A stretch of DNA of 64,000 nt from a virus, in the IMG/VR virus record IMGVR_UViG_3300022666_000353, positions 29,840 to 93,839 of that record; one strand, 5' to 3'. The notes below the pieces were generated by a model. The model saw nothing but the letters and a program-made list of their open reading frames with translations. It had not been told where the DNA came from and did not search any database. A program made the position numbers and the translations under genes. Every line of letters starts with the position of its first letter. Within the stretch, counting starts at the first letter, position 1. This document shows, piece by piece, positions 2,774 through 56,895 of this stretch.

Positions 2774-3592
2774 TTCGAGCTCTCCTTTTGTTTGCATAGT
2801 TTCGGTCCTGCTGGGACCATCATCAGTCAAGCGACACAGCTTGAGACTATATCCCGCCCATTGGGTTGGTGCGCGGGGGATTATGGCGCAAGGCATACCT
2901 TGCGTTGAATTGGTATAGGGTCAGTGTTTCACTAGCTCATATCGTCACAGAGTCCATCGTTCACGCGAGTTTCCCCGCCGCCGCCCGCCGCGCTCTTGTG
3001 TATCCCTACGGGTGCATACATTACCGCCTTGCGTGCTTTGCGATTTTACGGATTTACGCGATATTCTCAGCGCAATCTATGAGATAGCTAAACTGTCGCC
3101 CATGCTCACACCCTACGATGCAAGCCATATTCAGAATGAGCCGCGTGTCGGGTCAGTCCTTCGAACGCCCCGCTATGAAAGCTCATCACTATGTCAAGGT
3201 TCAGCCGGGAATTTCACCCCGTTCACTGGTATGCCAGTGAGAAAAAATCTGATACGCGCAAAAGATATAAATATGTCAGGCAAGCTCCTCTGTTCTGTGG
3301 TGGTCGGCGGTGGTGTTTCCCGCTCACACTCATAATAGTAGTCATAAACTGCCATATTTTCACTTTTATTTTCGGGTTTATTGCCAGTTTATTTTTATAG
3401 CGCAACTACGTCAAAAAGCGTTTTTTATTTCCGAATCCGACATGTTTTTATTATATTTACGTCGAAAGTTGGGATTTTACCGACCGGACGCTTTGGGGCT
3501 AATTACCTCAACTCCTATCGTACATCCCCCCGTTTTACCCTGTCCTATAAACCTACACACCCCCCACAAATAAAAAGACCCCTCATCGGGGT

Positions 3593-12733: not shown

Positions 12734-12805
12734 AGCCCCCACCCAGACGTGCGCTGGGTTCTCCTGATTACAGGTCAGGTGCGTCACTATATACGCTTTA
12801 GGGGC
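12734..12805 (-). tRNA. tRNA-Thr(UGU), atypical (C33, T-loop CGCACGU)
   Basis: Cloverleaf: GCCCCTA/TGGGGGC, GCGT/ACGC, CCTGA-CCTGTAA-TCAGG, CCCAG/CTGGG. Confidence 0.75.
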
Positions 12806-12811
12806 AGTCAA

Positions 12812-12883
12812 AGCCGAAGGAGAGATTTGAACTCTCAACCTACCCGATACGAACGGGCTGCTCTACCGTTGGGCTACTTCGGC
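12812..12883 (-). tRNA. tRNA-Thr(CGU)
   Basis: GCCGAAG/CTTCGGC, GCCCG-TTCGTAT-CGGGT, GAGAG-TTCAAAT-CTCTC. Confidence 0.9.
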
Positions 12884-13024
12884 GTACGGGTACGGGCATT
12901 GCGACAGAGGCTCGTTAGGTAGTGGCCCTAGATTTGTTATGCGCTTCCTGCTGCGGCAAGGGGAACCACTCGCGCTTCCACCCACTCCGGCTTGTATCCC
13001 GGTTTGTACGTCCTTGACCCGTTA
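12884..13024 (-). ncRNA. unassigned structured RNA A
   Basis: Closing stem ACGGGT/ACCCGT; AGTGGTTC/GGGCCACT; CTTGC-CGCA-GCAGG; no plausible ORF. Confidence 0.45.
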
Positions 13025-13060
13025 GTTTTAAAAATAGGACACAGCGACCTGTGTCCTTCT

Positions 13061-13172
13061 GCACCAGGTTTACTACCACCTCACGGATACTGTTTAGCTA
13101 TTCGACTATCCGCGGTTCATCGAACGTGCTTTAGCAAGGTCTTCTTTGTACTTGAGAAGACGAGCCTGGTAC
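13061..13172 (-). ncRNA. unassigned structured RNA B
   Basis: GTACCAGG/CCTGGTGC closes arms GTCTTCT/AGAAGAC and CGCGGATA/TATCCGTG. Confidence 0.55.
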
Positions 13173-13176
13173 ATAG

Positions 13177-13244
13177 TAGCGGGGGAGAGGGTCGAACTCT
13201 CTTAAGGAAGGTTATGGGCCTGCCGGGTTCCGAACCACCCCGCT
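13177..13244 (-). tRNA. tRNA-Met(CAU)-like with collapsed D-arm
   Basis: AGCGGGG/CCCCGCT-A, AGG-CCCATAA-CCT, GAGAG-TTCGACC-CTCTC; D region only GTTCGGAAC; 68 nt. Confidence 0.65.
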
Positions 13245-13249
13245 TCAAA

Positions 13250-13453
13250 TCAACTAACTTTTACGTACCTAATTTCTTTTGCTTGTCGTTCTTCCGTCTG
13301 TCCTACGTAGTACGCAGCCACAATCAAAGCATCCACATTGGACATGTCCACGGCCTTACCATACAACTGACCTGCGGCAATCTTTTCCTTAATGGTCCGT
13401 GCCATGAACTCAATCGAAAGTTTCTCTACATCCTGATACGGGCCCATAATCAT
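13250..13453 (-). CDS. hypothetical protein inside the RNA operon
   Basis: SD AGGAG; 67 aa. Confidence 0.55.
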   Translation of the reverse strand: MIMGPYQDVEKLSIEFMARTIKEKIAAGQLYGKAVDMSNVDALIVAAYYVGQTEERQAKEIRYVKVS

Positions 13454-13477
13454 TCTCCTGGTTTTGCTGGCCTAGAG

Positions 13478-13612
13478 TGGTCATCCAGCGCGGGGTCAGT
13501 GCTCGAACCCTTTGTACGGTGCTTCTTCCGTCAGTAGGATTGAACAGCGGGCCTGTTCTCCCCAGCAAGTCCAGTTGCAACGACTGTCGGCTATCACTGT
13601 GTGCCGAATGAC
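13478..13612 (-). ncRNA. unassigned structured RNA C
   Basis: 10-bp closing stem GTCATTCGGC/GCTGGATGAC then CA; arms GAACAG/CTGTTC, ACGG/CCGT, GGGTT/GACCC. Confidence 0.6.
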
Positions 13613-13616
13613 TAGG

Positions 13617-13688
13617 CGGGCTGGGAGCGTCTCGAACGCTCACTTCCCGTTTAAACGGCGGGTGTTCTGCCTAATGAACTTCCAACCC
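13617..13688 (-). tRNA. tRNA-Lys(UUU)-like, atypical anticodon loop
   Basis: GGGTTGG/CCAGCCC-G, GTTC/GAAC, CCCGC-CGTTTAA-ACGGG (G33, C31.A39), GAGCG-TTCGAGA-CGCTC. Confidence 0.7.
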
Positions 13689-13722
13689 GTGTGGACACAG
13701 TCGCCGCTGTGTCCGTTTCGTG

Positions 13723-14082
13723 CTAGTTAATTTCGTGGTACTCCAGCACCGCCACATCGGGGAACCGGACGTAGCCTTCGTCCGCGTCAAAGTAATACAG
13801 TTCTGCCGCGTTCAGCGGGGCAGGCCAACGCTCTTTCCACATCACCACCATTGCGCCCGCCTCTTCTTCCGTCACCGTGCCGGTGGACGCCAGGTAATTC
13901 GCCAGGTTGCGAACCGCACTCAACGCGGCCTCATACTTTTTCTGCGCCCGTTCGAACGTGCCGATTGCGGTGTTCTGCCACTCCTGCCAGGGGCCGTCAT
14001 CGGACAGCACCCGCACACCATCTTCAACCACACGGGCCGTGATTTTCTCCGAACACCAATCTTTCACTACTTCGATATACAC
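13723..14082 (-). CDS. hypothetical protein inside the RNA operon
   Basis: SD AGGAGG before GTG at 14082. Confidence 0.65.
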   Translation of the reverse strand: MYIEVVKDWCSEKITARVVEDGVRVLSDDGPWQEWQNTAIGTFERAQKKYEAALSAVRNLANYLASTGTVTEEEAGAMVVMWKERWPAPLNAAELYYFDADEGYVRFPDVAVLEYHEIN

Positions 14083-14118
14083 GTGTAATCCTCCTAAACT
14101 AGTAGAATAAAGGACCAG

Positions 14119-14212
14119 AGCGGGAGAGTGGACTTGAACCACTACCTCCTCCACTGCCTGTTTAAGCTACCAGTCACAGTGGCGTGCTGTACCGCACTAT
14201 ACACCACCCCGC
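14119..14212 (-). tRNA. tRNA-like RNA with Gly-type acceptor and extended anticodon arm
   Basis: GCGGGG/CTCCCGC-U, D arm GTGT/GCAC, T arm AGTGG-TTCAAGT-CCACT; anticodon arm is 32 nt. Confidence 0.65.
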
Positions 14213-14258
14213 ATAATAGGGACACGGGCAATCCTTAGTCATGCCGCTGTGTCCCATA

Positions 14259-14353
14259 CCGCCCATCCGTCTTTCCCCGTCCTTCCCCGGTCTGGTTTCC
14301 CCTAATCCCTGTTTCCAGGGGAATGGTAGAACTCTCAGTCACGTGATGGGCAG
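14259..14353 (-). ncRNA. unassigned structured RNA D (G-run rich)
   Basis: CTGCCCATC/GATGGGCGG closing stem; CCCTG-GAAA-CAGGG; three GGGGAA repeats. Confidence 0.5.
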
Positions 14354-14357
14354 TGAG

Positions 14358-14443
14358 TGGTGACGGCTGGATTTGAACCAGCATTACCCATGTGGGAACC
14401 TGTTTTACAGACAAGCGCGACTAACCGTATTCGCATCGTCACC
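14358..14443 (-). tRNA. tRNA-Tyr(GUA)
   Basis: GGTGACG/CGTCACC-A, CTTGT-CTGTAAA-ACAGG, long variable arm, TTCAAAT loop. Confidence 0.9.
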
Positions 14444-14479
14444 GTAAATAAACTAAATTTTTGTGGTACACCAAAAGAC

Positions 14480-14560
14480 CAATCTCCGGGGGACTAAGGC
14501 GGTCAGACCCTAGTCCCCCTTTACCTGGAGGTTGAAAATGAAGGGGCGGTCAGACCCCTA
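14480..14560 (-). ncRNA. twin-hairpin RNA E with identical UCUGACCG loops
   Basis: AGGGG-TCTGACCG-CCCCT and GGGGGACTAGGG-TCTGACCG-CCTTAGTCCCCC. Confidence 0.55.
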
Positions 14561-14561
14561 G

Positions 14562-14636
14562 AGAGCGGGGCAGGGGTTGAACCTGCTACCTCCTGGTTGT
14601 CTTACCCAGGGCTCCTACCGCGGAGCTTCCCACTCT
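14562..14636 (-). tRNA. tRNA-like RNA with 9-nt anticodon loop (identity undetermined)
   Basis: GAGTGGG/CCCGCTC, GCTC/GAGC, CCTGG-GTAAGACAA-CCAGG, GCAGG-TTCAACC-CCTGC. Confidence 0.7.
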
Positions 14637-14747
14637 GGTCGAGCGTCCCAGCGTCGTCTGGGTTAGCCGGTCACGTTGGTGGCCTCCCGCTGAACCCGGC
14701 GCGGTACACCTGCCATACCGCTGGCGTCCGTTCACCACATCACTCGA
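14636..14747 (-). ncRNA. enlarged tRNA-like RNA F ending in ACCA
   Basis: TCGAGTG/CGCTCGA followed by CCA; CCCAG/CTGGG arm next to the acceptor; long TGAAC..GCGGTA/TACCGC..GTTCA arm. Confidence 0.55.
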
Positions 14748-14768
14748 AGTAAATGTCCCAGTCCACAA

Positions 14769-14843
14769 AGCCCCGTCAGGGTCGGGTATCTAACCTGGAT
14801 ACCACCACTCTATATTTCAAGAGTTTCGATGGGTGGGCGGGCT
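14769..14843 (-). ncRNA. tRNA-sized structured RNA G
   Basis: AGCCC/GGGCT closing stem; ACTCT/AGAGT and GGTATC/GATACC arms. Confidence 0.4.
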
Positions 14844-14972
14844 TATCACTGGTTTGTCCCTGTCGCTGCCGGTCTGCTTGCCGACTGTCATCACCACTCC
14901 GCGCTAAATCCAGGTGACGGAAAGGAGAGATGGTTACTCCTCTGGCGGGCTGTCTTTTCCAGCGGTCATTGT

Positions 14973-15106
14973 CCGACTGAATTGTGTCCGGCTACCGAGT
15001 TTTTTGATGTGTTGGTAAATGGATTGGGTATGCGCCAAAGAGCCTATCCTCTGTAATAGCTCCTGATAAGTCACCAACACGTCTCTGACCCGTTCCAGTC
15101 AGTCGC
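14973..15106 (-). ncRNA. rod-shaped RNA H with central bubble
   Basis: CGACTGA/TCAGTCG closing stem, A-rich internal loop, GTGTTGGTGA/TTACCAACAC stem. Confidence 0.5.
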
Positions 15107-15113
15107 AACCAAA

Positions 15114-15185
15114 AGGCACTTGAGTGATTCGAACACTCGTCTGCGCCGTACAACCGGCGCGTTTTCCCAATTAAACTAAAGTGCC
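15114..15185 (-). tRNA. tRNA-like RNA with Cys-type acceptor and 6-nt anticodon loop
   Basis: GGCACTT/AAGTGCC-U, GTTT/AAAC, CGCCG-GTTGTA-CGGCG, GAGTG-TTCGAAT-CACTC. Confidence 0.7.
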
Positions 15186-15274
15186 GTCGTCCCTACGTTC
15201 CCGTCATTACGGGTCTATGGGTTGCCTCAGTCCCAACTCTGGAGGTGAACATGACTGGCCACACCTGGCCAAGG

Positions 15275-15348
15275 CGGTGCCGGGGGGGAGTTGAACCCAC
15301 AACCTCCTGTTTTGGAGACAGGTGCTCTGCCAATTGAGCCTCCGGCCC
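15275..15348 (-). tRNA. tRNA-Trp(CCA)
   Basis: GCTC/GAGC D arm, CCTGT-CTCCAAA-ACAGG, TTCAACT loop; acceptor stem imperfect. Confidence 0.85.
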
Positions 15349-15350
15349 GT

Positions 15351-15562
15351 AAGATTGGGACACGGTGAGGTGCCTGAGAATAGCGCCGCGCCAGTTATTC
15401 TTCGTTCGTTTATCGGCCATCTCCTGGACCCTCCTGGTACTGGATGCGCCCCCGCAGTGCCACGTACTACCAGGATTAGAGCATTCCGACTACCCACGAC
15501 ACCGAGGCCACTCACCTAACTTACAGGTCGGTGCGGCTGACACAACCCGTGTCCCAAATCTT
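15351..15562 (-). ncRNA. unassigned ~210-nt structured RNA I
   Basis: ~15-bp closing stem AAGATT(T)GGGACACGG/CCGTGTCCCAATCTT; TCCTGGTA/TACCAGGA and AGAATA/TATTCT arms. Confidence 0.6.
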
Positions 15563-15638
15563 TAAATTAAGTTTTCTTCCCAACGCACCTCCCACGGGTT
15601 CTATGGGTTGCCTCTGTCCCTTCTTGTCCAACTCGCAG

Positions 15639-15901
15639 TGGACCCGGTGGCATCGAAGCCACGTCACTCAGCGCCTTTAGTTCTCCTGATGTAGAGTCAT
15701 TCCCGTTATATCCTGCGGGTCAGGTCTTACCACCCCCACCACCTGGTTACTTACGCGAAGGCCAGGACTTCGTCAGACACAGGTGCTACGATAACTTTGC
15801 ACCCAAACAACTGTTCAGCTAAAGAGACTTCGTCTTTATTGGCTTTTGTTTTTTGTGACTCTCGGATTAGTTTGACACCAAGCTCGAAACCTTGCGGGCC
15901 C
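15639..15901 (-). ncRNA. ssrA: tmRNA, compact (263 nt)
   Basis: 5' GGGCCCG..GGTTTCGA; 3' GAC-GTGGC-TTCGAT-GCCAC-CGGGTCC-A with G3.U70; tag frame ANKDEVSLAEQLFGCKVIVAPVSDEVLAFA*. Confidence 0.9.
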
Positions 15902-15902
15902 T

Positions 15903-16456
15903 TAGTTGCCGGTCTCTGCCGGCTGTCACGGTGTCTGGTTGGCACATTTCCTTGACGCGTTGTGGCATACGATTAACGCCTTCACTCGACCGCCTCATGC
16001 TCTGTGTGTCACCGTTTACACGTTTAGGTTTAACAGTTCCGGCTATGACGGCGTCGCTCTCGCGCAAAGGCTCTGAGGGCGTTACACGGGCGTCCAGGAA
16101 TACTCTCGGACAGTCTCACCCTATCCTGTCAAACCCGCAGTTCCTCTCGTTGTGCGGGCAAACCCGTGCACTAGCACTGTTGTAAAGTCTCGAACCACAC
16201 AGTTCTTTGGAACTCCACCTGTTACCAGGTATAGAAGAAGACCGCGTAGTCGTCTAACAGCAGCGATTGTTTCCCTGTGGTTCTTACCAACTCCTCGCGT
16301 GTCCCGCTGTGTTAGGCTTGATTTCAGGTTGCGCCTCCCTACTCTCTTCCACTCGCCACTCTTTAAAGGATGACGTGCTAAGTCAACCTCCCGTCAGTCT
16401 CAGCCGGATGTGACCACCTGGTGTGTTATTACTACAAACACCACCAGGCTCATCCA
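15903..16456 (-). ncRNA. candidate large (~550 nt) ornate ncRNA
   Basis: No SD-led ORF; nested helices CCTGGTG/ACCAGG, AGGTTG/CAACCT, CTAACA-CAGCG/CGCTG-TGTTAG, AACAGT/ACTGTT, TGCACGGGT/GCCCGTGTA, GCCCGCA/TGCGGGT; GUAA and GAGA tetraloops. Confidence 0.65.
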
Positions 16457-16510
16457 AATAATATACGGTTGTTAATGTGCTATTAAAAACATTTTATATT
16501 TCTATGTATA

Positions 16511-16539
16511 ATTATAGCGCGTTAACCACCAGAAGTCAA
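16511..16539 (-). promoter_or_regulatory. sigma70 promoter of the RNA operon
   Basis: TTGACT-N17-TATAAT. Confidence 0.85.
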
Positions 16540-16544
16540 GCAGT

Positions 16545-16775
16545 TTATTCACTTTCTTTTGCAATTCTTATAAACTCTTGCTGCGCTACCCTCAACCACA
16601 GTCGTTCAAACGCGGCGTTGCCGCTGTGTCCATCCGCCAAAATACCCCAGTCTTTACGAACTGCATCCAGGTCACGGATGTTTTTAATCATCCTACGGTA
16701 CTGAAGCAGGTTCGCAGTTTCCAAACCAATAAGAATTACCAATAATAAACAAACCATAACCGTAATCATAGCCAT
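16545..16775 (-). CDS. small membrane-anchored protein
   Basis: N-terminal TM helix. Confidence 0.45.
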   Translation of the reverse strand: MAMITVMVCLLLVILIGLETANLLQYRRMIKNIRDLDAVRKDWGILADGHSGNAAFERLWLRVAQQEFIRIAKESE

Positions 16776-29050: not shown

Positions 29051-29735
29051 CATTATTTAAAATTGTTAGGTTGGTCAGTAAACCTAACGCACATACAGCA
29101 ACACACCTCGCTGGGTGGGCCAAGTTTCTGCGGAAGCGCGTAGGCTCCCCCCGGGAAGCGGCTGACGCGGCACCGGTTCCTGTACTTCCTCGTTATCACG
29201 ATAGTGCAGAGACAAACTGGCGGTACGTTGACTGGGCTTTGCCGCCCGCTCAACATCACAGGCTCACCCCAGAGTGAGCGAAACGAGTCTGTGTCCAACT
29301 TAAAGCTCACAAACCACCCGAACCCCCCGTCCTGCTTGGGGGCGTAGCGAAGACCCGATGACACAACGTCGGTCACCTGATAACGGCAGACCTGGGCAGG
29401 TCAATATAAGCTACGCTTTGAATGCAAACATTCTTAACCTCCCCCGGATAGGGGGATTCTACCTACCTGCCGAGGTGACGAGTACGTTATACCCGACGCA
29501 GTACGTCATATCTGTATAAAGGAACTAACAGATATAAGACACAGGGCGGCAGGTGTGAAGATACCCATACTGCGCTGTGACTATCTTATACAGTTAGTTT
29601 CATTAGCACATTTATTCTAAGATAGTACGAATGAATAATAGGCCGCTGTGTAATCTTATTATTATTTTTATGTACCGTCAGGTAGATTGTTACACAGTCA
29701 ACCCCTGTGACTAAGGGATAGTTATACCTATTTTT
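29050..29735 (+). ncRNA. candidate large structured ncRNA (or structured origin)
   Basis: No SD-led ORF; at least 12 helices including GTTAGGTT/AACCTAAC, GCGTAGC/GCTACGC, ACCTGCCG/CGGCAGGT. Confidence 0.55.
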
Positions 29736-46383: not shown

Positions 46384-47843
46384 TGGCGCAGTTGTGGAAA
46401 CTTACGCTGACCGACAACGTAGAGACGGTTAATTTTATTTCCGACCCTGTCTACTTTGTCGAGGACGGAGAATTTAACATTGGTATGCCGTCAGTACGCA
46501 GGGAGCTTGCACCGATTCGTTCGGGATTTTATATTCCGGTGTTGCACGAAATCGAGTATCGAGAAGCGTCAATTAAGTTCCAGGTCCGTGGGGCTACTCG
46601 CACCGCTGTGTTGTCTTCCATACAGAAAATTGAGCGTATTCTACGGAACATCGCCGCCCAGGTTCGTCTATCAGCCGGTCGCCGCGGCGAACTCTCCTAT
46701 TCCTGGGAAGGGTCTATCAACGTCACATATTTTGAGGTGTACGGAGGAACCGTAAAACTCCCTGACGACGCACTGTCGGTGGAAAAGATGTACGCCACCG
46801 AAAATGGTTCGATAGTTTTACCAGAGGTAGAACTCACTTTGTACATGAGCGGTATGGGCTACGGCCTGTCGTTATTCTCTGAGCCCACCCTGGAAATCCC
46901 CCTGTTAAACCCGTCCGTGGGAGCCAAGCAGACAGGGGGTGTGCGGGTACAGAATGCGTGGACTTCTGGGCAGAATAACTATGTTGAATTAAACGCCGTT
47001 GACCTGCCTGGCAGCCTGCCGTTAATTACCAAAATCCAACTGGCGTCCGATACCCCGTATTCAGCCTGGCGCAGCCTGTTCATGGGGTTACAGCAGTCAC
47101 CTTACCCAACGGGGTTGTTTTTTGACAGCGCCAATACCGCCCAAAACCTATTGAGTGGCACAGAACCAGCAAACGCCAATGCCAGCGGCGGCAGTTACAA
47201 GAGTTTCAGTTGGGGGTCTCCGTTATCAAGCTCGGCACTCTCTAAGTTTGGCTGGTCTTTGGGTAACAGTTCAGTCGGAACTTTCTTTGCCTTCTACAAT
47301 GCGTTCAACGCAATACCCCAGGATGTGCAATTGGCGGTGGGTATTGAAGACTACAGCTACTACGGCATTCGCCAACTCGATGAGTTCACGGGTCCCGTTA
47401 CCACGGGAATTTACAGCCTGCCCCTGGGTGTTGTTAATTTCCCGCCTGGTGGAGCCGCTGTGTCCAATGCTGGTACGCTGATGAGTAACATCCTGCTGAG
47501 TATATGGGTAACCTCTGGGCAAGCCAGCAGCCTGACCTTAGACCACGTTACCCTGCTGCCCATGGCAAATGGCCTACGGGTGTGGAACTCTCGTTCGCCC
47601 ATCAATGCTTCCACTGGTTCGTTTATTGACGACGGGTGGCGCGGGATTGAATACGTGAAGAACGTGTCTAACCAAATCCTGACCCCGTTCTACGGTCTGA
47701 TGGAGCCATTAAAACTGGAGCCCAACGTTACGCAGCGTATTTACTTTAATTCGGTTGGGTTGTCCTATGGAACTACGGAGGCCAGCCGCGCATTTGTTGT
47801 AAGGGTGTACGCAGTACCAACTTATTCCACCCTGGCACTGTAG
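46383..47843 (+). CDS. distal tail protein (Dit-like)
   Basis: Directly follows the TMP; beta-rich. Confidence 0.6.
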   Translation: MAQLWKLTLTDNVETVNFISDPVYFVEDGEFNIGMPSVRRELAPIRSGFYIPVLHEIEYREASIKFQVRGATRTAVLSSIQKIERILRNIAAQVRLSAGRRGELSYSWEGSINVTYFEVYGGTVKLPDDALSVEKMYATENGSIVLPEVELTLYMSGMGYGLSLFSEPTLEIPLLNPSVGAKQTGGVRVQNAWTSGQNNYVELNAVDLPGSLPLITKIQLASDTPYSAWRSLFMGLQQSPYPTGLFFDSANTAQNLLSGTEPANANASGGSYKSFSWGSPLSSSALSKFGWSLGNSSVGTFFAFYNAFNAIPQDVQLAVGIEDYSYYGIRQLDEFTGPVTTGIYSLPLGVVNFPPGGAAVSNAGTLMSNILLSIWVTSGQASSLTLDHVTLLPMANGLRVWNSRSPINASTGSFIDDGWRGIEYVKNVSNQILTPFYGLMEPLKLEPNVTQRIYFNSVGLSYGTTEASRAFVVRVYAVPTYSTLAL

Positions 47844-55000: not shown

Positions 55001-56895
55001 CGTGGGAACTGTTGACGGCGACGTGGACAAACAACACCGGTGGAACCGTTAATGCCTCTATCATGGTGACCAACGACGGAGCCGACAGTGCATCCATGAT
55101 TTGGGTGGACGCCTGCCAGGTAGAACGTAAGACCCGGCCTACTCCGTACTGCGATGGTTCGTTGGGTGCGGGTCACAGTTGGTCCGGTACTGCACATGCG
55201 TCAACCAGTTCTCGCACGGCTGCCGCTGTGTCCTATAACAACAGTAACATTATCGACAGCACACCTGGAACATTCGCTGCCTGGGTATATATGTATGGAT
55301 ACCCCGTCAGCGGTGAGACGTCTTATCTGTTCGACAGTCGGGATATATCAAACACCAACAGCCCGTCATTGTTAATCGGAGCATCTGGTGGTGTAGTGTG
55401 GCAGTATAACGGCGCGAGTGTAATCTCCACCGCGGCGTCGTCTGTTGGCGTAAGAGCCTGGTATCACGTAGCCGTAACGTACGACTACACCAGCGGCTCG
55501 CAAGTGCTTTATGTTAATGGTACTCAGATTGGCACGTCTAGTTCTACCACACCCCCGTCGAATTTCGGCGCAAAGCTGTTTATTGGAAGCCGCTATACCA
55601 GCGTCTTTATGTTGAACGGAGTAATTGATGACGCAGTGTTTGTTGACCGGGTTCTATCAGCCGACGAGGTGTACGCCCTCTACAATTCTGGGCAGGCCAT
55701 TCAAGCCACGACCAGCCCGTTCCAGCTTATGCTCACTGGCTCCGGCCTGGGAAAAGTATGGGGTGATTCATCCGGTTTGTTCGGGCAGACTTCTAGTGGA
55801 ACAGCGTCGTTTGCCTTAGTCAACGAGAACGGTATATCCTGGGCAGGCGGGACCCTGGACGCGGGCGATGTGATGATTGGTACGTCAACGACGTACTTGA
55901 AGTGGGACACCAGCCTGGCGGAGCTCGAAGTAAAGGGCAAGATTTCTGCTACCAGCGGGTCTATTACCAACACATTGTCCGTCCTGGGTACGCTGGATGT
56001 GGGGTCAAGTGGTGTTATCAAGTCAGGTGCTACGGGGTACGACAGCGGGACTGGCTGGTGGTTGGATTATAACGCTGGTTCTCCGCGGTTCTTCATCGGC
56101 AACAGCGCCGGGAATAAACTGACGTACAGCGCCGGGACACTGTCTTTGTCAGGAACAGTAAGTGCGGCCACCATCACAGGGGACGCAGCGGTTACTACTG
56201 GTAAAATCACCGCAGCCAGCGGCGCGGTGCGGCTGGATTCGAACGGCGTGTCCGTCAACATGGCAGGTCTCACGAACGGCGTCCGGTGGTACACGTCATC
56301 CGCGTTCAGTACACAGGCCGGCGAAATTTACGTGTCCTCCGACACATCTGGCGAACCGATGATTGACCTTCGTACCGGAAGCAGCCCAACAACCGGTGTT
56401 AAAATTAACGGTAACTATTCTGGCATACGTGCGCCCAATGTGTACGTTGACAACGCGGGTGCTGGCGGGGGTGGGTATTTTATTGGGTCCACTGCGGGAG
56501 GGTTTTCACGTGGAAACTTGTTTATCCCGATTGTCCCAGGAAACACCAGCACGTCGTTTGATGGGGACGCGTTCTCCACTACGTCTGCTACGAACTATAC
56601 CGTGAACACTTACTTTTCGAGTGTACCAAACATAGCTAAGGCAATTTTAGTACGTGTGTCTTGCCGAGACAGTGGAAGTGCGTCAAACAACAGTTTGTAC
56701 GTAGCCTTGGGAACCAGTGACGACACGACGAACTACCCGCTGATTGTGCGCCCGGCTGGGTTGCCAAATGACTACTTCGCGGAGGGCCAAGGAATCGTTC
56801 CCCTCAACTCAAGTGGTCAGTTCCGGTTTCAGTGTGTGGCGTCGGGCACGGGTACGCTGGATGTGTATATCCAAGTATGGGGGTACTTCCTGTAA
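49018..56895 (+). CDS. giant tail fibre/receptor-binding protein with two CBM-LamG modules
   Basis: G/T/S-rich repeats; TN.ITNPSFE...D..Q.E carbohydrate-binding modules; LamG W.H.A.T..LY.NG..IDD. Confidence 0.85.
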   Translation: MGLTASDINQMVLRFLPRVGDSTVGGTIIPNATNTHNLGSAANRFDTIYARQIVADSLSGTGGSADTVDGFHAYSTPNASALLALDASSVFPTSVYPNALLRDGSRSLTGNLAVSAGVTIDGVDISAHAVDGTIHHTGGMSADDHSQYVHTSLSRTITASHQFAPGSAAAPFTLGVNAQGQTVTGFKADQLNKSVIAGSGLTGGGALTASVTLNVGAGNGITVNADDVAVNLKSTSGLEVDGTGLALADTVAGSGLTVASKVLSVGAGTLISVAADTVSLSNGSAQYQVPMTGATPFTPAWTNLSTLAGNGLVFSSGTFAVGAGTGITVNADDIQVKLKTLSGLEADSAGLAVQDAIAGNGLSITNKVLAVNVASPLAIVSDTVTLSGGTAQYQTLVTGAGPNYTGTWTDLNTMAGAGIAFNTGVFDIGAGNGIQVNADSIQVKLQSPSGLTADSSGLAIADTVAGAGLTIASKVLAVGAGALITVAADTVGVANGSAQWQVPVTGASPFTPAYTSLSSLAGDGLTFSTNFTVALSATSGLQLVGTSPNKTLEINDTVAGNGLTISSKVLAVGAGTLITVGSTAVSLSNGTAQYQVPVTGANPYTPAYTALSTFAGVGLNFTGGQFVLGTPSTLTAGTTNSSSGTTHSHAITASANPGAAEFILKTTPAGGLTLASAAITGALTVGQDLTVGTNVLFVDQSEGLVGINCVPDPQFQLDVNSNIRARGYIVGKHAIQLKDAKLIAHFDGPEPFETNFTGEATGHMGQVATLSGGYAFRPGKFQKGLQVAEATTNEITNPSFEYGANGASVTSDGWTLSQSGTGATATYDTSRAYIGSQSCKLVASTVSNSNVYRAVSVADGETITVQARVYRTGAVSSKLRIFDATNSVERATASTTATDTWEYLTCTWTNNLGSTVNAALMVTNSAADGTSAIWVDACQLERKAYSTPYCDGSMGSGHTWAGTAHLSASSRTNAVVSYSGVNNINLNAGTVSLWYYNDGTHKRGYARAFQYRIDANNYIGINVSSTTNNPYAIDMSGGVSVQTSSGATAAVVGWNYLVATWKTGGQFKLYLNGQLTGTTPSYTAPVGSGGTIAIGRDVTGVSQHLNDVIDDVVIVGRELTVDEIRAIYESDAPVFAESSTWAFKSASQIVWADEEGLWAIDTSGNPAFGVSGVDGKSWGGNTLDKGDILMGRSSNYLKWDASAGLISLYSPGSSLTKEEYFDGTTEEVNNRWTPYLGSTSLLSVTSGGYAGGNVLRIGDNSGNDECRIISNQSIPFDPNKLYRVFFRVRLVASSSPGTVYLGVAGRNATDTAWVNVTGSDVNTSQHYFAASNQVLTAVGEGGAWSEFTGYFRGVNTTGNGGVHALASAPGTLHESSRYFRLFLWVNWLAKPGIVEVDEIRVDIMPNYSDSPFAHSSDTTTIDGGKIFTGSITADKITTATLSAIVADLGTVTAGSIVVGTTNKLWLNDAADGALAIGGTVKGSAPFRVTAAGVLTATSGTIGGWSITSTQINSSGITMIADATAASNKIYVGTGTYNSSDTAFYVDGSGRFSLKNKLVWDGSSLTIDGGVTATTGSIGGWTIATNTLSATNILLDSNSKYFRIGATPASMTFGSTDGVQIEYNGGDPRVYFGNGTNRYFSFDGTNISWQGASTSLTTGGLFTANNASITGAITANSGSIAGSFTVGANLSVSTSGSFSSGATAYNTGTGWWMEYNAGTPRFFLGNAAGNKLTWNGSSLDITGNITANGTGQIGGWTIASTGLSSGGINLVSSGTAVNNKIYVGTGNYANGDTAFLVDGSGRMSLKDKLVWDGTKLSVSGAVVLGAGVGFTVSNPNLHLPFDGPAPYETDYQVTLTGHLGQRPVSTSGGLIGRPGKYGKGLQVAEATTNELTNPSFEAGNVGDAVTSYGWSYSQTGTGGTATNDNLRAYVGVRSCKILASSTGVSSIYKTVSVTNGDTITVQARVWRGSAIATRLRVYDHTNNTTRVTTNAAETNTWELLTATWTNNTGGTVNASIMVTNDGADSASMIWVDACQVERKTRPTPYCDGSLGAGHSWSGTAHASTSSRTAAAVSYNNSNIIDSTPGTFAAWVYMYGYPVSGETSYLFDSRDISNTNSPSLLIGASGGVVWQYNGASVISTAASSVGVRAWYHVAVTYDYTSGSQVLYVNGTQIGTSSSTTPPSNFGAKLFIGSRYTSVFMLNGVIDDAVFVDRVLSADEVYALYNSGQAIQATTSPFQLMLTGSGLGKVWGDSSGLFGQTSSGTASFALVNENGISWAGGTLDAGDVMIGTSTTYLKWDTSLAELEVKGKISATSGSITNTLSVLGTLDVGSSGVIKSGATGYDSGTGWWLDYNAGSPRFFIGNSAGNKLTYSAGTLSLSGTVSAATITGDAAVTTGKITAASGAVRLDSNGVSVNMAGLTNGVRWYTSSAFSTQAGEIYVSSDTSGEPMIDLRTGSSPTTGVKINGNYSGIRAPNVYVDNAGAGGGGYFIGSTAGGFSRGNLFIPIVPGNTSTSFDGDAFSTTSATNYTVNTYFSSVPNIAKAILVRVSCRDSGSASNNSLYVALGTSDDTTNYPLIVRPAGLPNDYFAEGQGIVPLNSSGQFRFQCVASGTGTLDVYIQVWGYFL

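What the first reader, a model, noticed from the sequence alone, without database searches (positions are those of the whole stretch)
12734..16504. 3.8-kb phage RNA operon mixing tRNAs, deformed tRNA mimics, tmRNA and ~10 unassigned structured RNAs
Seen: one near-consensus promoter (16511-16539) faces ~3.8 kb containing only two small ORFs. Almost every gap between tRNAs is itself a self-contained RNA whose 5' and 3' ends pair: 12884-13024, 13061-13172, 13478-13612, 14259-14353, 14480-14560, 14636-14747, 14769-14843, 14973-15106, 15351-15562, 15903-16456. Known: tRNA processing (RNase P, 3' trimming) releases neighbouring RNAs from polycistrons. Inference: the tRNAs act as punctuation releasing a library of small folded RNAs (decoys, protein sponges, anti-defence RNAs). 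This is my best candidate for an undescribed system here.
Basis: partly seen in the sequence, partly recalled or inferred. Interest (0 to 1): 0.9.

Follow-up and report, generated by a model that had tools for sequence, protein, structure and literature searches.

The report
Phage tRNA–tmRNA island with rRNA-derived RNA
An uncultured phage carries a 3.8-kb, promoter-driven cluster of RNA genes: normal and misshapen tRNAs, a tmRNA, and a 369-nt RNA from a widespread phage RNA family, apparently undescribed, that copies the ribosome's uL11/GTPase site; most of the other proposed "spacer RNAs" remain unproven.

Summary
The anatomy is real. A near-consensus sigma-70 promoter (16539-16511, minus strand) faces about 3.77 kb. 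That stretch holds three canonical tRNAs, one atypical tRNA-Met, five tRNA-like genes with non-decoding anticodon arms or an odd T loop, a compact tmRNA, two small ORFs with ribosome-binding sites, and about 1.9 kb of unassigned RNA.

The main result is the head RNA, re-bounded to 16407-16039. It belongs to a phage RNA family embedded in tRNA arrays that rebuilds the 23S rRNA GTPase-associated centre (H42 top, H43, H44) around a variable insert. The family shows strong covariation, is absent from Rfam 15 and from the searchable literature, and occurs unannotated in cultured phages such as Pseudomonas phage Astolliot. This scan had already found the family on other DNA. The window's copy keeps every core helix through compensatory changes, but both rRNA-identical loops are replaced.

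Of the nine other proposed RNAs, one (212 nt) has a very strong terminal helix and four have moderate ones. The rest fold no better than shuffles. None has a homologue, so covariation could not be tested. DNA contigs from the same samples suggest that two spacers behave as discrete, shuffled modules.

Verdict: tRNA punctuation is plausible; a "library of functional RNAs" is only partly supported.

The parts
16511..16539 (-). Sigma-70-type promoter: TTGACT, 17-nt spacer, TATAAT. The transcription start is expected near 16504.
   Evidence: 11 of 12 consensus matches.
16417..16448 (-). 5' leader hairpin (CCUGGUGGUGU...ACACACCAGG) ahead of the rRNA-derived RNA.
   Evidence: Sequence; fold.
16039..16407 (-). 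369-nt RNA derived from the 23S GTPase-associated centre. Its parts are: outer helix 16407-16402 with 16044-16039; P1 16396-16391 with 16051-16046; H43-like hairpin 16389-16367; junction UUUAAAGAGU 16367-16358; insert-closing helix GGC 16357-16355 with GCC 16071-16069; a roughly 285-nt insert; H44-equivalent hairpin 16064-16055.
   Evidence: Covariance model R1 scores 28.8 bits, E 3e-6. blastn to L019 gives E 1e-9. The unconstrained MFE gives the family architecture. Subfamily covariation is shown.
15902..16038 (-). 137-nt unassigned stretch. It holds a partial repeat of the 3' closing strands (GCGUCA 15958-15953; CAGCCGG 15925-15919).
   Evidence: No family match.
15638..15901 (-). Compact tmRNA. 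It has a G3-U70 acceptor, a T arm, and a 30-codon tag ending LAFA.
   Evidence: ARAGORN. A relative with an identical 29-nt 3' end occurs in L175. Rfam tmRNA models stay below threshold.
15351..15562 (-). 212-nt candidate RNA closed by a 15-16-bp helix (GGGACACGG / CCGUGUCCC). It ends a few nt before tRNA-Trp.
   Evidence: End-duplex z -4.75; fold; no Rfam match.
15276..15348 (-). tRNA-Trp(CCA), canonical.
   Evidence: 52.8 bits.
15114..15185 (-). tRNA-like gene: a perfect cloverleaf with a 6-nt anticodon loop. It is a homologue of a canonical phage tRNA-Thr(UGU) and differs from it mainly in the anticodon arm and T arm (the D arm is near-identical).
   Evidence: (49.7 bits).
14973..15106 (-). 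134-nt candidate structured RNA.
   Evidence: MFE z -2.82; end-duplex z -2.47. No relatives.
14636..14747 (-). 112-nt cloverleaf-like element: a 7-bp terminal helix, a T-arm-like hairpin CCCAG...CUGGG, and a 3' CCA. It does not fold better than shuffles.
14561..14635 (-). tRNA-like gene with intact acceptor, D and T arms. The anticodon stem is 4 bp plus a G.A mismatch, and A replaces U33.
   Evidence: No Rfam tRNA match at E<=5.
14444..14560 (-). Two local hairpins sharing GGGUCUGACCGCC. The first is terminator-like; the second has a 13-bp stem.
   Evidence: z -3.08; repeat family D9.
14357..14443 (-). tRNA-Tyr(GUA), canonical, with a long variable arm.
   Evidence: 47.4 bits.
14259..14353 (-). 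95-nt candidate RNA with a 9-bp terminal helix and a G-tract-rich 3' half. It is nearly identical in a second co-occurring contig whose flanks differ.
   Evidence: z -2.94; z -2.74.
14220..14254 (-). GGGACAC...GUGUCCC hairpin ending 7 nt before the next tRNA-like gene.
14118..14212 (-). 95-nt tRNA-like gene with normal acceptor, D and T arms and an over-long anticodon arm (about 10 bp, 10-nt loop).
13723..14082 (-). ORF of 119 aa (AGGAGG ribosome-binding site, GTG start). No known family.
13693..13714 (-). GGACACAG...CUGUGUCC hairpin between the ORF stop codon and the next tRNA-like gene (4-nt gap).
13615..13688 (-). tRNA-like gene with intact acceptor and T arms. The anticodon stem is 4 bp plus a C.A mismatch, and G replaces U33.
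   Evidence: No Rfam tRNA match at E<=5.
13478..13612 (-). 135-nt stretch with a 10-bp terminal helix. It lies directly upstream of the 67-aa ORF's ribosome-binding site and is probably that ORF's 5' UTR.
   Evidence: z -2.57; sequence.
13250..13453 (-). ORF of 67 aa with a ribosome-binding site. No known family.
13176..13244 (-). Atypical 69-nt tRNA-Met(CAU) with a tiny D arm and a 6-bp anticodon stem containing a mismatch.
   Evidence: ARAGORN only. No Rfam match at E<=5.
13061..13172 (-). 112-nt candidate structured RNA with an 8-bp terminal helix. The matching interval (13020-13170) does not align to the co-occurring variant contig.
   Evidence: z -2.54; z -2.61.
13036..13057 (-). GGACACAGG...CUGUGUCC hairpin followed by AUUUUU, a terminator-like site inside the island.
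12884..13024 (-). 141-nt spacer with no fold signal. A copy about 88% identical lies in a co-occurring contig with different neighbours.
   Evidence: (z +0.39).
12812..12883 (-). tRNA-Thr(CGU), canonical.
   Evidence: 62.5 bits.
12734..12805 (-). tRNA-like gene (UGU) with C in place of U33 and a non-consensus T loop. A U run follows, which is probably the end of the island.
   Evidence: (39.4 bits); sequence.

Best explanation
This is a phage island of translation-related RNA genes, expressed from one strong sigma-70 promoter as polycistronic precursors.

Inferred from established RNase P and tRNA 3'-end processing: host RNase P cuts at the 5' end of each tRNA, tRNA-like element and the tmRNA, and 3' trimming completes them.

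The expected products are:
- decoding tRNAs Trp, Tyr and Thr(CGU), plus an atypical Met;
- a compact tmRNA;
- a 369-nt RNA descended from the phage family that copies the 23S GTPase-associated centre;
- two small mRNAs;
- intervening fragments.

Three GGACAC...GUGUCC helices end 4-9 nt before a tRNA or tRNA-like 5' end. They would cap the upstream fragment's new 3' end against exonucleases.

Five tRNA-like genes keep the acceptor/T-arm minihelix but lack a decoding-competent anticodon loop. They most likely serve as processing punctuation.

A few fragments are probably stable structured RNAs of unknown role: 212 nt, 95 nt, 112 nt and 134 nt. The rest may be mere spacer or UTR.

Shown here: the gene content, the family membership and helices of the head RNA, and the pattern of tRNA deformation. 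Inferred: transcription as one unit, the processing, the stability and all functions.
For: - Promoter.
- Uniform strand and tight packing of tRNA, tRNA-like and tmRNA genes.
- Head RNA: covariance model R1 hit with E 3e-6, and blastn E 1e-9 to family member L019.
- The unconstrained MFE of 16400-16042 reproduces P1, H43 and H44.
- In a six-sequence subfamily alignment, the core is 87.5% paired, with 12 pairs changed on both sides. The covariation score is 0.49, against 0.14 for shuffles and at most 0.16 for slid partners.
- RNAalifold finds the same helices independently.
- Family level: 92% of cells paired and covariation 0.57 against 0.15. No opposite-strand tRNA occurs in 45 loci. Members are tightly flanked by tRNAs.
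- All four GGACAC/GUGUCC helices with a short or enclosing loop that lie outside coding sequence are inside the island, and three abut tRNA or tRNA-like 5' ends; three more long-range GGACAC/GUGUCC pairs lie within large ORFs.
- In four of the five tRNA-like genes the deviation is confined to the anticodon arm, while the acceptor and T arms stay perfect.
- Co-occurring contigs have breakpoints at 13019/12889 and 14354/14253, close to the predicted RNA ends.
- Precedent: the T4 tRNA region yields the small RNAs RNAC and RNAD, of unknown role (PMC3014915).
Against: - No expression or end-mapping data were available.
- A terminator-like hairpin with a U run sits inside the island (13057-13036), and another lies at 14559-14542. 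There may therefore be more than one transcription unit, or attenuation.
- Sliding-window folding of the spacers is not significantly better than in coding DNA (p 0.12).
- Five of the ten proposed RNAs lack significant end pairing.
- No spacer other than the head RNA has a homologue in 45 phage tRNA-array loci, in cultured phages, or in pattern scans of viral and metagenome contigs.
- The head RNA has lost both rRNA-identical loops, so it could be a decaying copy.
Confidence: 0.6

Rival explanations
1. Decaying tRNA array. Only the canonical tRNAs and the tmRNA are functional. The deformed tRNAs, the cloverleaf-like 112-nt element, the loop-altered rRNA-derived RNA and the orphan spacers are pseudogenes and debris, carried along in a recombination-prone region.
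For: - The spacers have no homologues.
- Half fold no better than shuffles.
- The head RNA scores lowest of all family hits: 28.8 bits, against 51-140.
- It lacks the conserved H43 and H44 loop sequences (with the positive control).
- Contig joints indicate rearrangement.
Against: - The head RNA's changes are compensatory, not random. Both H44 base pairs are flipped, G-C becomes A-U in H43, U-A becomes G-C in the insert-closing helix, and the 10-nt hairpin length and spacing are exact.
- Four tRNA-likes keep flawless acceptor and T arms while only the anticodon arm deviates.
- The island sits directly behind an 11-of-12 consensus promoter.
- A 95-nt spacer is nearly identical in a second genomic context.
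Confidence: 0.25
2. Decoy toolkit. The loop-altered copies of translation RNAs are made on purpose. The tRNA bodies lack U33 or have resized anticodon loops, and the GAC scaffold has replaced loops. They would act as uncleavable competitors or inhibitors of host anticodon nucleases or of other factors that bind tRNA or the GTPase centre.
For: - The pattern 'scaffold kept, functional loop changed' recurs in five tRNA-likes and in the head RNA.
- Phage tRNAs are known to counter tRNA-targeting defences, in part through anticodon-loop changes (PMC10264068; PMC11555353).
- Canonical family members copy the rRNA loops exactly, which implies that they bind some GAC ligand.
Against: - No defence or counter-defence gene was identified next to the island.
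- The published cases involve base substitutions in tRNAs that still decode, not loss of U33 or resized loops.
- A decoy that has lost the recognised loop may no longer bind its target.
- Nothing here tests binding.
Confidence: 0.15
3. Several independent units rather than one operon. Internal hairpin and U-run sites and weak internal promoters split the region into about three transcripts. The GGACAC hairpins would then be terminators or attenuators, not 3'-end caps.
For: Terminator-like sites lie at 14559-14542 and 13057-13036. A weak promoter-like site lies at 14242-14213.
Against: - Only one strong promoter is found.
- The count of terminator-like sites (5) equals the shuffle expectation (4.9).
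- Two of the four GGACAC hairpins lack a U run.
Confidence: 0.3

Closest known systems
Phage RNA family rebuilding the 23S GTPase-associated centre. It is not in Rfam 15 and no paper was found. Here it is defined by alignment A1 and model R1. This scan had noted it earlier on other genomes.
   Same: - Same-strand position at a phage tRNA array.
- Closing helix.
- H43 hairpin with the covarying 1058-1080 pair.
- Junction UUUAAAGAGU.
- Insert between U1090 and G1091, closed by a covarying helix.
- A 10-nt H44 hairpin, then AC-N-C and the 3' closing strand.
- Subfamily motifs GAGU-NNC-GAGUG and CCCUYAGAG, shared with L019, L009, L011, L021 and the upstream copy in Pseudomonas phage Astolliot.
   Different: - The H43 loop is 7 nt (UUAGCAC) rather than UUAGAAGCA.
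- The H44 hairpin is CGC-GAGA-GCG rather than GC-GUAAUA-GC.
- The score of 28.8 bits is the lowest of all hits.
- No other viral contig matched the pattern with a shortened loop.
GTPase-associated centre of 23S rRNA (E. coli 1051-1108, which binds uL11 and thiostrepton)
   Same: The window aligns to 23S 1041-1088 at 35 of 48 positions, above all 50 shuffles. It has the same three-way junction topology.
   Different: It is free-standing and carries a roughly 285-nt insert. The loop nucleotides that form the uL11/thiostrepton pocket in rRNA are not conserved here: the 1065-1073 loop is shortened, and the 1093-1098 loop is replaced by GAGA.
T4 tRNA gene cluster with small RNAs RNAC and RNAD
   Same: It is a phage tRNA region that also yields extra small RNAs of unknown role (PMC3014915).
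   Different: No sequence relation was tested or expected. Here the extra RNA far exceeds the tRNA content, and there are also a tmRNA and an rRNA-derived RNA.
GOLLD and ROOL large ornate RNAs
   Same: They are large structured RNAs, often next to tRNAs and in prophages (PMC5737381).
   Different: There is no match to either Rfam model, even at E<=10. The core here is an rRNA-domain copy.
Phage-encoded tmRNAs
   Same: It has a tRNA-like domain with G3-U70, a tag reading frame and a position in a tRNA array. A relative in another viral contig (L175) has an identical 29-nt 3' end and a tag frame ending in ...DEAIAA.
   Different: It is only 264 nt, has a 30-codon tag ending LAFA, and stays below every Rfam tmRNA threshold.
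Phage tRNAs with anticodon-loop changes that evade tRNA-targeting defences (PMC10264068; PMC11555353)
   Same: They are phage tRNA genes that deviate specifically in the anticodon loop.
   Different: The published tRNAs still decode. Here U33 is lost in three genes, and the loop is 6 or about 10 nt in two others, so decoding is unlikely.

Membership tests
Phage GAC-copy RNA family (A1/R1) | 5' module: closing strand, H43 stem and junction UUUAAAGAGU | tested here: met
   R1 scores 28.8 bits, E 3.3e-6 in the window and E 2.3e-5 over 454 kb. blastn to L019 gives 86.5% over 52 nt, E 1e-9. The H43 stem pairs 7 of 7, with one compensatory G-C to A-U change.
Phage GAC-copy RNA family (A1/R1) | H43 loop identical to rRNA (UUAGAAGCA, 9 nt) | tested here: not met
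   The loop is UUAGCAC, 7 nt. All 47 pattern hits in viral contigs had the 9-nt form.
Phage GAC-copy RNA family (A1/R1) | H44 hairpin at a fixed position after UUUG and before AC-N-C plus the closing strand | tested here: met
   A 10-nt hairpin at 16064-16055 has the same length and spacing. Both base pairs are flipped compensatorily.
Phage GAC-copy RNA family (A1/R1) | H44 sequence GCGUAAUAGC (rRNA-identical loop) | tested here: not met
   R1 finds no 3' module in 15880-16290. The same isolated search finds it in L019 at 12.2 bits, E 5e-4. The window has CGCGAGAGCG.
Phage GAC-copy RNA family (A1/R1) | Closing helix and insert-closing helix that covary | tested here: met
   P1 pairs 6 of 6, and the insert-closing helix 3 of 3, with G-C where four relatives have U-A.
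Phage GAC-copy RNA family (A1/R1) | Lies on the same strand as, and beside, phage tRNA genes | tested here: met
   The window's copy heads the array and is followed by the tmRNA. At family level, no opposite-strand tRNA occurs in 45 loci.
tmRNA | tRNA-like domain: 7-bp acceptor with G3-U70, T arm and discriminator A | tested here: met
   ARAGORN at its default threshold; pairing read from the sequence.
tmRNA | Tag reading frame with an Ala resume codon and a stop codon | tested here: met
   ARAGORN reports the tag ANKDEV...LAFA*. L175 carries a related frame.
tmRNA | Match to a curated tmRNA covariance model | tested here: not met
   The best matches are tmRNA_permuted at 16.6 bits (cut-off 47) and beta_tmRNA at 7.9 bits (cut-off 84).
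tRNA (RF00005) | Covariance-model score above the gathering threshold | tested here: met
   Met for 12812-12883, 15276-15348, 15114-15185, 14358-14443 and 12734-12805. Not met at E<=5 for 13176-13244, 13615-13688, 14118-14212 and 14561-14635.
tRNA (decoding-competent) | 7-nt anticodon loop with U33 | tested here: not met
   Not met in five genes: a 6-nt loop (15114-15185); C33 (12734-12805); G33 (13615-13688); A33 (14561-14635); a loop of about 10 nt on an extended arm (14118-14212). Met in Trp, Tyr, Thr(CGU) and Met.
GOLLD / ROOL | Match to the Rfam model | tested here: not met
   No hit at the gathering threshold or at E<=10.
T4-type tRNA-cluster small RNAs (RNAC/RNAD) | Discrete stable RNAs processed from the tRNA precursor | not testable with these tools
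   No RNA run holds this sequence.

The most novel reading that the evidence does not exclude
The island is a coordinated set of scaffold-preserving, loop-altered copies of translation RNAs. These are an rRNA GTPase-centre domain whose helices are kept by compensatory change while both factor- and uL11-contacting loops are replaced, and five tRNA bodies without decoding loops. tRNA-like punctuation releases them. They would act off the ribosome as uncleavable decoys or inhibitors of host factors or defence nucleases that recognise these RNAs. In this reading the orphan spacer RNAs are further members of the same toolkit.
Probability: 0.15. Interest if true: 0.85.

Novelty: new variant of a known kind. 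Interest (0 to 1): 0.62.

Why it matters
Phage tRNA arrays are usually annotated as tRNAs plus empty gaps. Here one gap holds a member of a large phage RNA family, apparently undescribed, that copies the ribosome's uL11/GTPase-associated centre. The family also sits unannotated in cultured phages such as Pseudomonas phage Astolliot, so it can be tested at the bench.

The window's copy is informative for the family. Every core helix is kept by compensatory change, but both rRNA-identical loops are gone. Either the scaffold has a function that does not need rRNA mimicry, or this shows how such a mimic decays.

The repeated 'intact body, disabled anticodon loop' tRNA-likes suggest that tRNA shapes are kept as processing signals or decoys. 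This is directly testable with RNase P assays and small-RNA sequencing.

Tried and rejected
1. Close relatives of the island were not found.
   - Cultured phages gave no match in near mode, and only tRNA-Trp in distant mode.
   - The search for related loci with the 119-aa and 252-aa proteins found nothing.
   - The terminase gave one 65%-identical relative, L002, whose fragment lacks any tRNA or the region.
   - The search for homologous proteins returned only the protein itself.
2. Pattern scans found nothing for:
   - the 24-nt repeat;
   - the window's H43 variant and the L019-like junction in metagenome contigs;
   - the 95-nt module.
3. The genome-contig scan with ...AAAGAGU returned only true 23S genes. 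This showed that GAGU is the ordinary non-proteobacterial rRNA sequence.
4. No RNA holder was listed among public runs; the three holders are DNA runs from one biofilm study.
5. My first 3' boundary for the head RNA (15980-15953, with outer pairing to 15925-15919) was wrong. Alignment with Astolliot and L019 moved it to 16071-16039.
6. A sarcin-ricin-loop copy in the insert was not convincing in the window. L019 has an SRL-like hairpin.
7. The other spacers show no likeness to 16S, 23S or 5S rRNA above shuffles.
8. A weak GAC-like stretch after the tmRNA is not significant.
9. Rfam at E<=10 gave nothing for the 212-nt RNA.
10. PHROGs and Pfam gave nothing for any spacer ORF. The protein atlas gave nothing for the 119-aa ORF.
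11. A two-sequence comparison of 12884-13024 with its 88% variant gave no clear compensatory pattern.
12. A second tRNA cluster in the 93.8-kb record was sought; there is none.

Full report
**Setting.** The window is bases 29840-93839 of a 93.8-kb IMG/VR record classed as a provirus. GC content is about 51%. The record encodes a large terminase, a portal protein, ribonucleotide reductase, a thymidylate synthase family protein and a DNA methyltransferase. Its terminase is only about 25% identical to those of cultured phages. The record has a single tRNA cluster.

**Checking the observation.** A TTGACT-17-TATAAT promoter lies at 16539-16511 on the minus strand. ARAGORN finds tRNA-Thr(CGU), Met, Tyr and Trp, a tRNA with a 6-nt anticodon loop, and a 264-nt tmRNA, all on the minus strand.
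- Rfam confirms four of these and adds a tRNA at 12734-12805.
- Relaxed ARAGORN adds three more tRNA-shaped genes.
- Only two ORFs have a proper ribosome-binding site: 119 aa and 67 aa.
- Neither these two nor any other ORF in the region matches PHROGs or Pfam.
- Three DNA runs from one biofilm study carry the same sequence.

About 1.9 kb of the 3.77 kb remains unassigned.

**Do the gaps fold?** The answer is mixed.
- MFE z-scores of the ten proposed intervals range from +0.39 to -3.08.
- Pairing of the two ends is outstanding for 15351-15562 (z -4.75).
- It is nominally significant for four others (z about -2.5 to -2.7) and absent for five. The interval boundaries had been chosen by eye to pair, which biases this test.
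- An unbiased 120-nt sliding window shows a mean z of -0.48 in spacers against -0.11 in coding DNA (p 0.12).
- Long-range perfect inverted repeats are mildly enriched: 7 against 2.75 +/- 1.65, with 6 of 200 shuffles reaching 7. Coding controls are not enriched.

**The head RNA.**
- The minus strand at about 16405-16360 aligns to E. coli 23S 1041-1088 at 35 of 48 positions. This scores above all 50 shuffles, unlike any other spacer.
- A degenerate H43 pattern found 47 viral contigs. Of these, 45 share only about 30-37 nt with 23S, so they are not rRNA.
- In these loci the motif lies inside tRNA arrays and always on the tRNA strand.
- The element has a fixed architecture, in this order: a 5' closing strand; an exact H43 copy; UUUAAAGAGU; a variable insert of 40 to more than 350 nt; UUUGGCGUAAUAGCACAC; a 3' closing strand.
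- True 23S genes of many phyla read AAAGAGU-GCGUAAUAGCUCAC. The insert therefore sits between U1090 and G1091.
- On 15 short members, the named structure is 92% paired, with 13 pairs changed on both sides. The covariation score is 0.57, against 0.15 for shuffles and 0.07-0.14 for slid partners.
- Rfam 15 finds nothing there except tRNAs.
- Five literature searches and one paper on phage structured RNAs found no description.
- Earlier follow-ups of this scan reached the same view on other genomes.
- A canonical member lies unannotated in cultured Pseudomonas phage Astolliot. It scores 102.5 bits and ends 6 nt before tRNA-Met.

**Is the window's RNA a member?**
- Model R1 hits 16399-16300 at 28.8 bits (E 3e-6). 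This is the lowest score of all hits: canonical members score 82-140, a true 23S 61.5, and long-insert members 51-53.
- The conserved H44 sequence is not found in the window. The same isolated search does find it in L019.
- My first guess for the 3' end was wrong.
- Alignment with L019 and with a divergent second copy just upstream of the Astolliot RNA placed the 3' module at 16071-16039.
- For 16400-16042, the unconstrained MFE already gives P1, the H43 hairpin and an H44-position hairpin.
- The window forms all 20 core pairs. The compensatory changes are: A-U where relatives have G1063-C1075; G-C where four relatives have U-A in the insert-closing helix; and both H44 pairs flipped.
- The H44 hairpin CGCGAGAGCG has exactly the 10-nt length and spacing of GCGUAAUAGC.
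- On six sequences the core is 87.5% paired, with 12 doubly changed pairs and covariation 0.49 against 0.14. RNAalifold finds the same helices on its own.
- The subfamily also shares GAGU-NNC-GAGUG, CCCUYAGAG and an insert motif CACAGGGGAAGGAYAAGU.

The conclusion is that the window's RNA is a structural member whose two rRNA-identical loops have been replaced: H43 carries UUAGCAC, and H44 carries a GAGA tetraloop. Whether it still binds what the canonical members bind could not be tested. By established biochemistry of the 58-nt rRNA domain, that ligand is presumably uL11 or another GAC ligand.

**The tmRNA.** ARAGORN calls it at default settings. The acceptor has G3-U70 and the T arm is normal. 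Rfam tmRNA models stay below threshold. A viral contig (L175) holds an ARAGORN-missed tmRNA with:
- the complementary 5' GGGCCCG;
- an identical 29-nt 3' end;
- a frame ending ...GCDEAIAA-stop;
- two tRNAs directly after it.

I accept the tmRNA as real.

**The deformed tRNAs.** Five genes keep a 6-7-bp acceptor stem, and four of them also keep a 5-bp T stem with a consensus T loop. All five are disabled elsewhere.
- 15114-15185 has a 6-nt anticodon loop.
- 12734-12805 has C33, 13615-13688 has G33, and 14561-14635 has A33, in place of the universal U33.
- 14118-14212 has an over-long anticodon arm.
- 15114-15185 is a homologue of the canonical tRNA-Thr(UGU) beside L019; the D arm and 5' anticodon stem are 86% identical over 37 nt, the anticodon arm differs at three positions, and the T arm and acceptor also differ.
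- tRNA-Met is atypical and is seen only by ARAGORN.

Damage confined to the decoding loop, repeated four times, argues against random decay. It fits elements retained as RNase P substrates, or as decoys.

**Punctuation and end caps.** Outside coding sequence, helices built from GGACAC...GUGUCC occur in the window only inside the island; three further long-range pairs lie within large ORFs.
- Three of them end 4-9 nt before a tRNA or tRNA-like 5' end. One of these is the terminal helix of the 212-nt RNA.
- The fourth carries a U run.
- After RNase P cleavage, such helices would sit at the new 3' end of the upstream fragment. This step is inferred.

**Modularity.** In the same samples, a 386-nt contig carries 12889-13019 at about 88% identity.
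- One end of this contig matches 13171-13200, so the 13020-13170 interval has no aligned counterpart in it; up to about 110 nt of unaligned contig sequence may lie there.
- Its other end matches 14354-14321; up to about 80 nt of unaligned contig sequence may lie between.
- A second contig shares 14253-14310 almost exactly and then diverges.
- This suggests that the spacers are discrete units that are exchanged or duplicated.
- I could not retrieve those contigs, and the two-sequence comparison was uninformative.

**Verdict.** The island is a phage tRNA/tmRNA array of a known general kind, but unusually rich in extra RNA. One component belongs to a widespread and apparently undescribed rRNA-derived RNA family, which this scan had already met elsewhere. 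The 'tRNA punctuation' mechanism is plausible. It is supported by the anatomy here and across the family, but it is not shown. The 'library of functional small RNAs' is supported for one RNA, is plausible for four or five, and is unsupported for the rest.

Noticed in passing
window, whole (e.g. 16620-16631, 14243-14254, 13703-13714, 47454-47465, 55222-55233): The 12-mer GGACACAGCGGC (up to 2 mismatches allowed) occurs 35 times, against 5.8 expected. It lies on both strands and inside coding regions, so it may be a DNA-level motif.
   Followed up: partly
window 29311-29416 (+): Rfam EGFOA RNA (RF02955) matches just above its gathering score: 40.8 against 37.7 bits.
   Followed up: no
L177:4164-4489 (Pseudomonas phage Astolliot, OM982621.1): A second, divergent GAC-like RNA lies in tandem just upstream of the canonical one. 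Its H44 is altered (GUGUCAUAAC), and it has ACGC as in the window. This suggests a recurrent 'relaxed-loop' subtype.
   Followed up: partly
L175:693-1066: A phage tmRNA that ARAGORN missed. It has a 5' GGGCCCG, a 3' end identical over 29 nt to the window's tmRNA, and a frame ending DEAIAA-stop. tRNA-Arg and tRNA-Gln follow.
   Followed up: partly
window 12889-13019, 13171-13200, 14253-14354: Co-occurring contigs in the same three DNA runs carry these pieces in a different order or with different flanks, at similar depth. The source is either a related phage or a second copy elsewhere on the parent contig.
   Followed up: partly
window 15597-15620 and 15211-15234: A 24-nt direct repeat (GGGAC-N-GAGGCAACCCAUAGA-CC on the RNA strand) lies about 20-40 nt after the tmRNA and after tRNA-Trp. 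A scan of viral contigs found no match.
   Followed up: partly
window 15953-15958 and 15919-15925: A partial repeat of the head RNA's 3' closing strands (GCGUCA, CAGCCGG) lies about 90-120 nt downstream of the real ones. It offers an alternative pairing that costs only about 5 kcal/mol relative to the MFE.
   Followed up: partly
L019 (oriented) about 3154-3176, inside the insert: A sarcin-ricin-loop-like hairpin, UGCAU-AGUAC-GGGA-GGAA-AUGCG, sits in the insert of the window's closest canonical relative.
   Followed up: partly
window 13723-14082 (-): The only database match to the 119-aa protein is a 99%-identical sequence seen on a 363-kb contig. The 93.8-kb 'provirus' may therefore have been cut from a much larger contig, either the host or a jumbo phage.
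   Followed up: no
L030:2334-2589; L012:6756-6842: Other phage tRNA-array loci that hold the GAC-copy RNA also contain a group I intron (72 bits) and a tRNA-Sec-like gene (48.4 bits).
   Followed up: no
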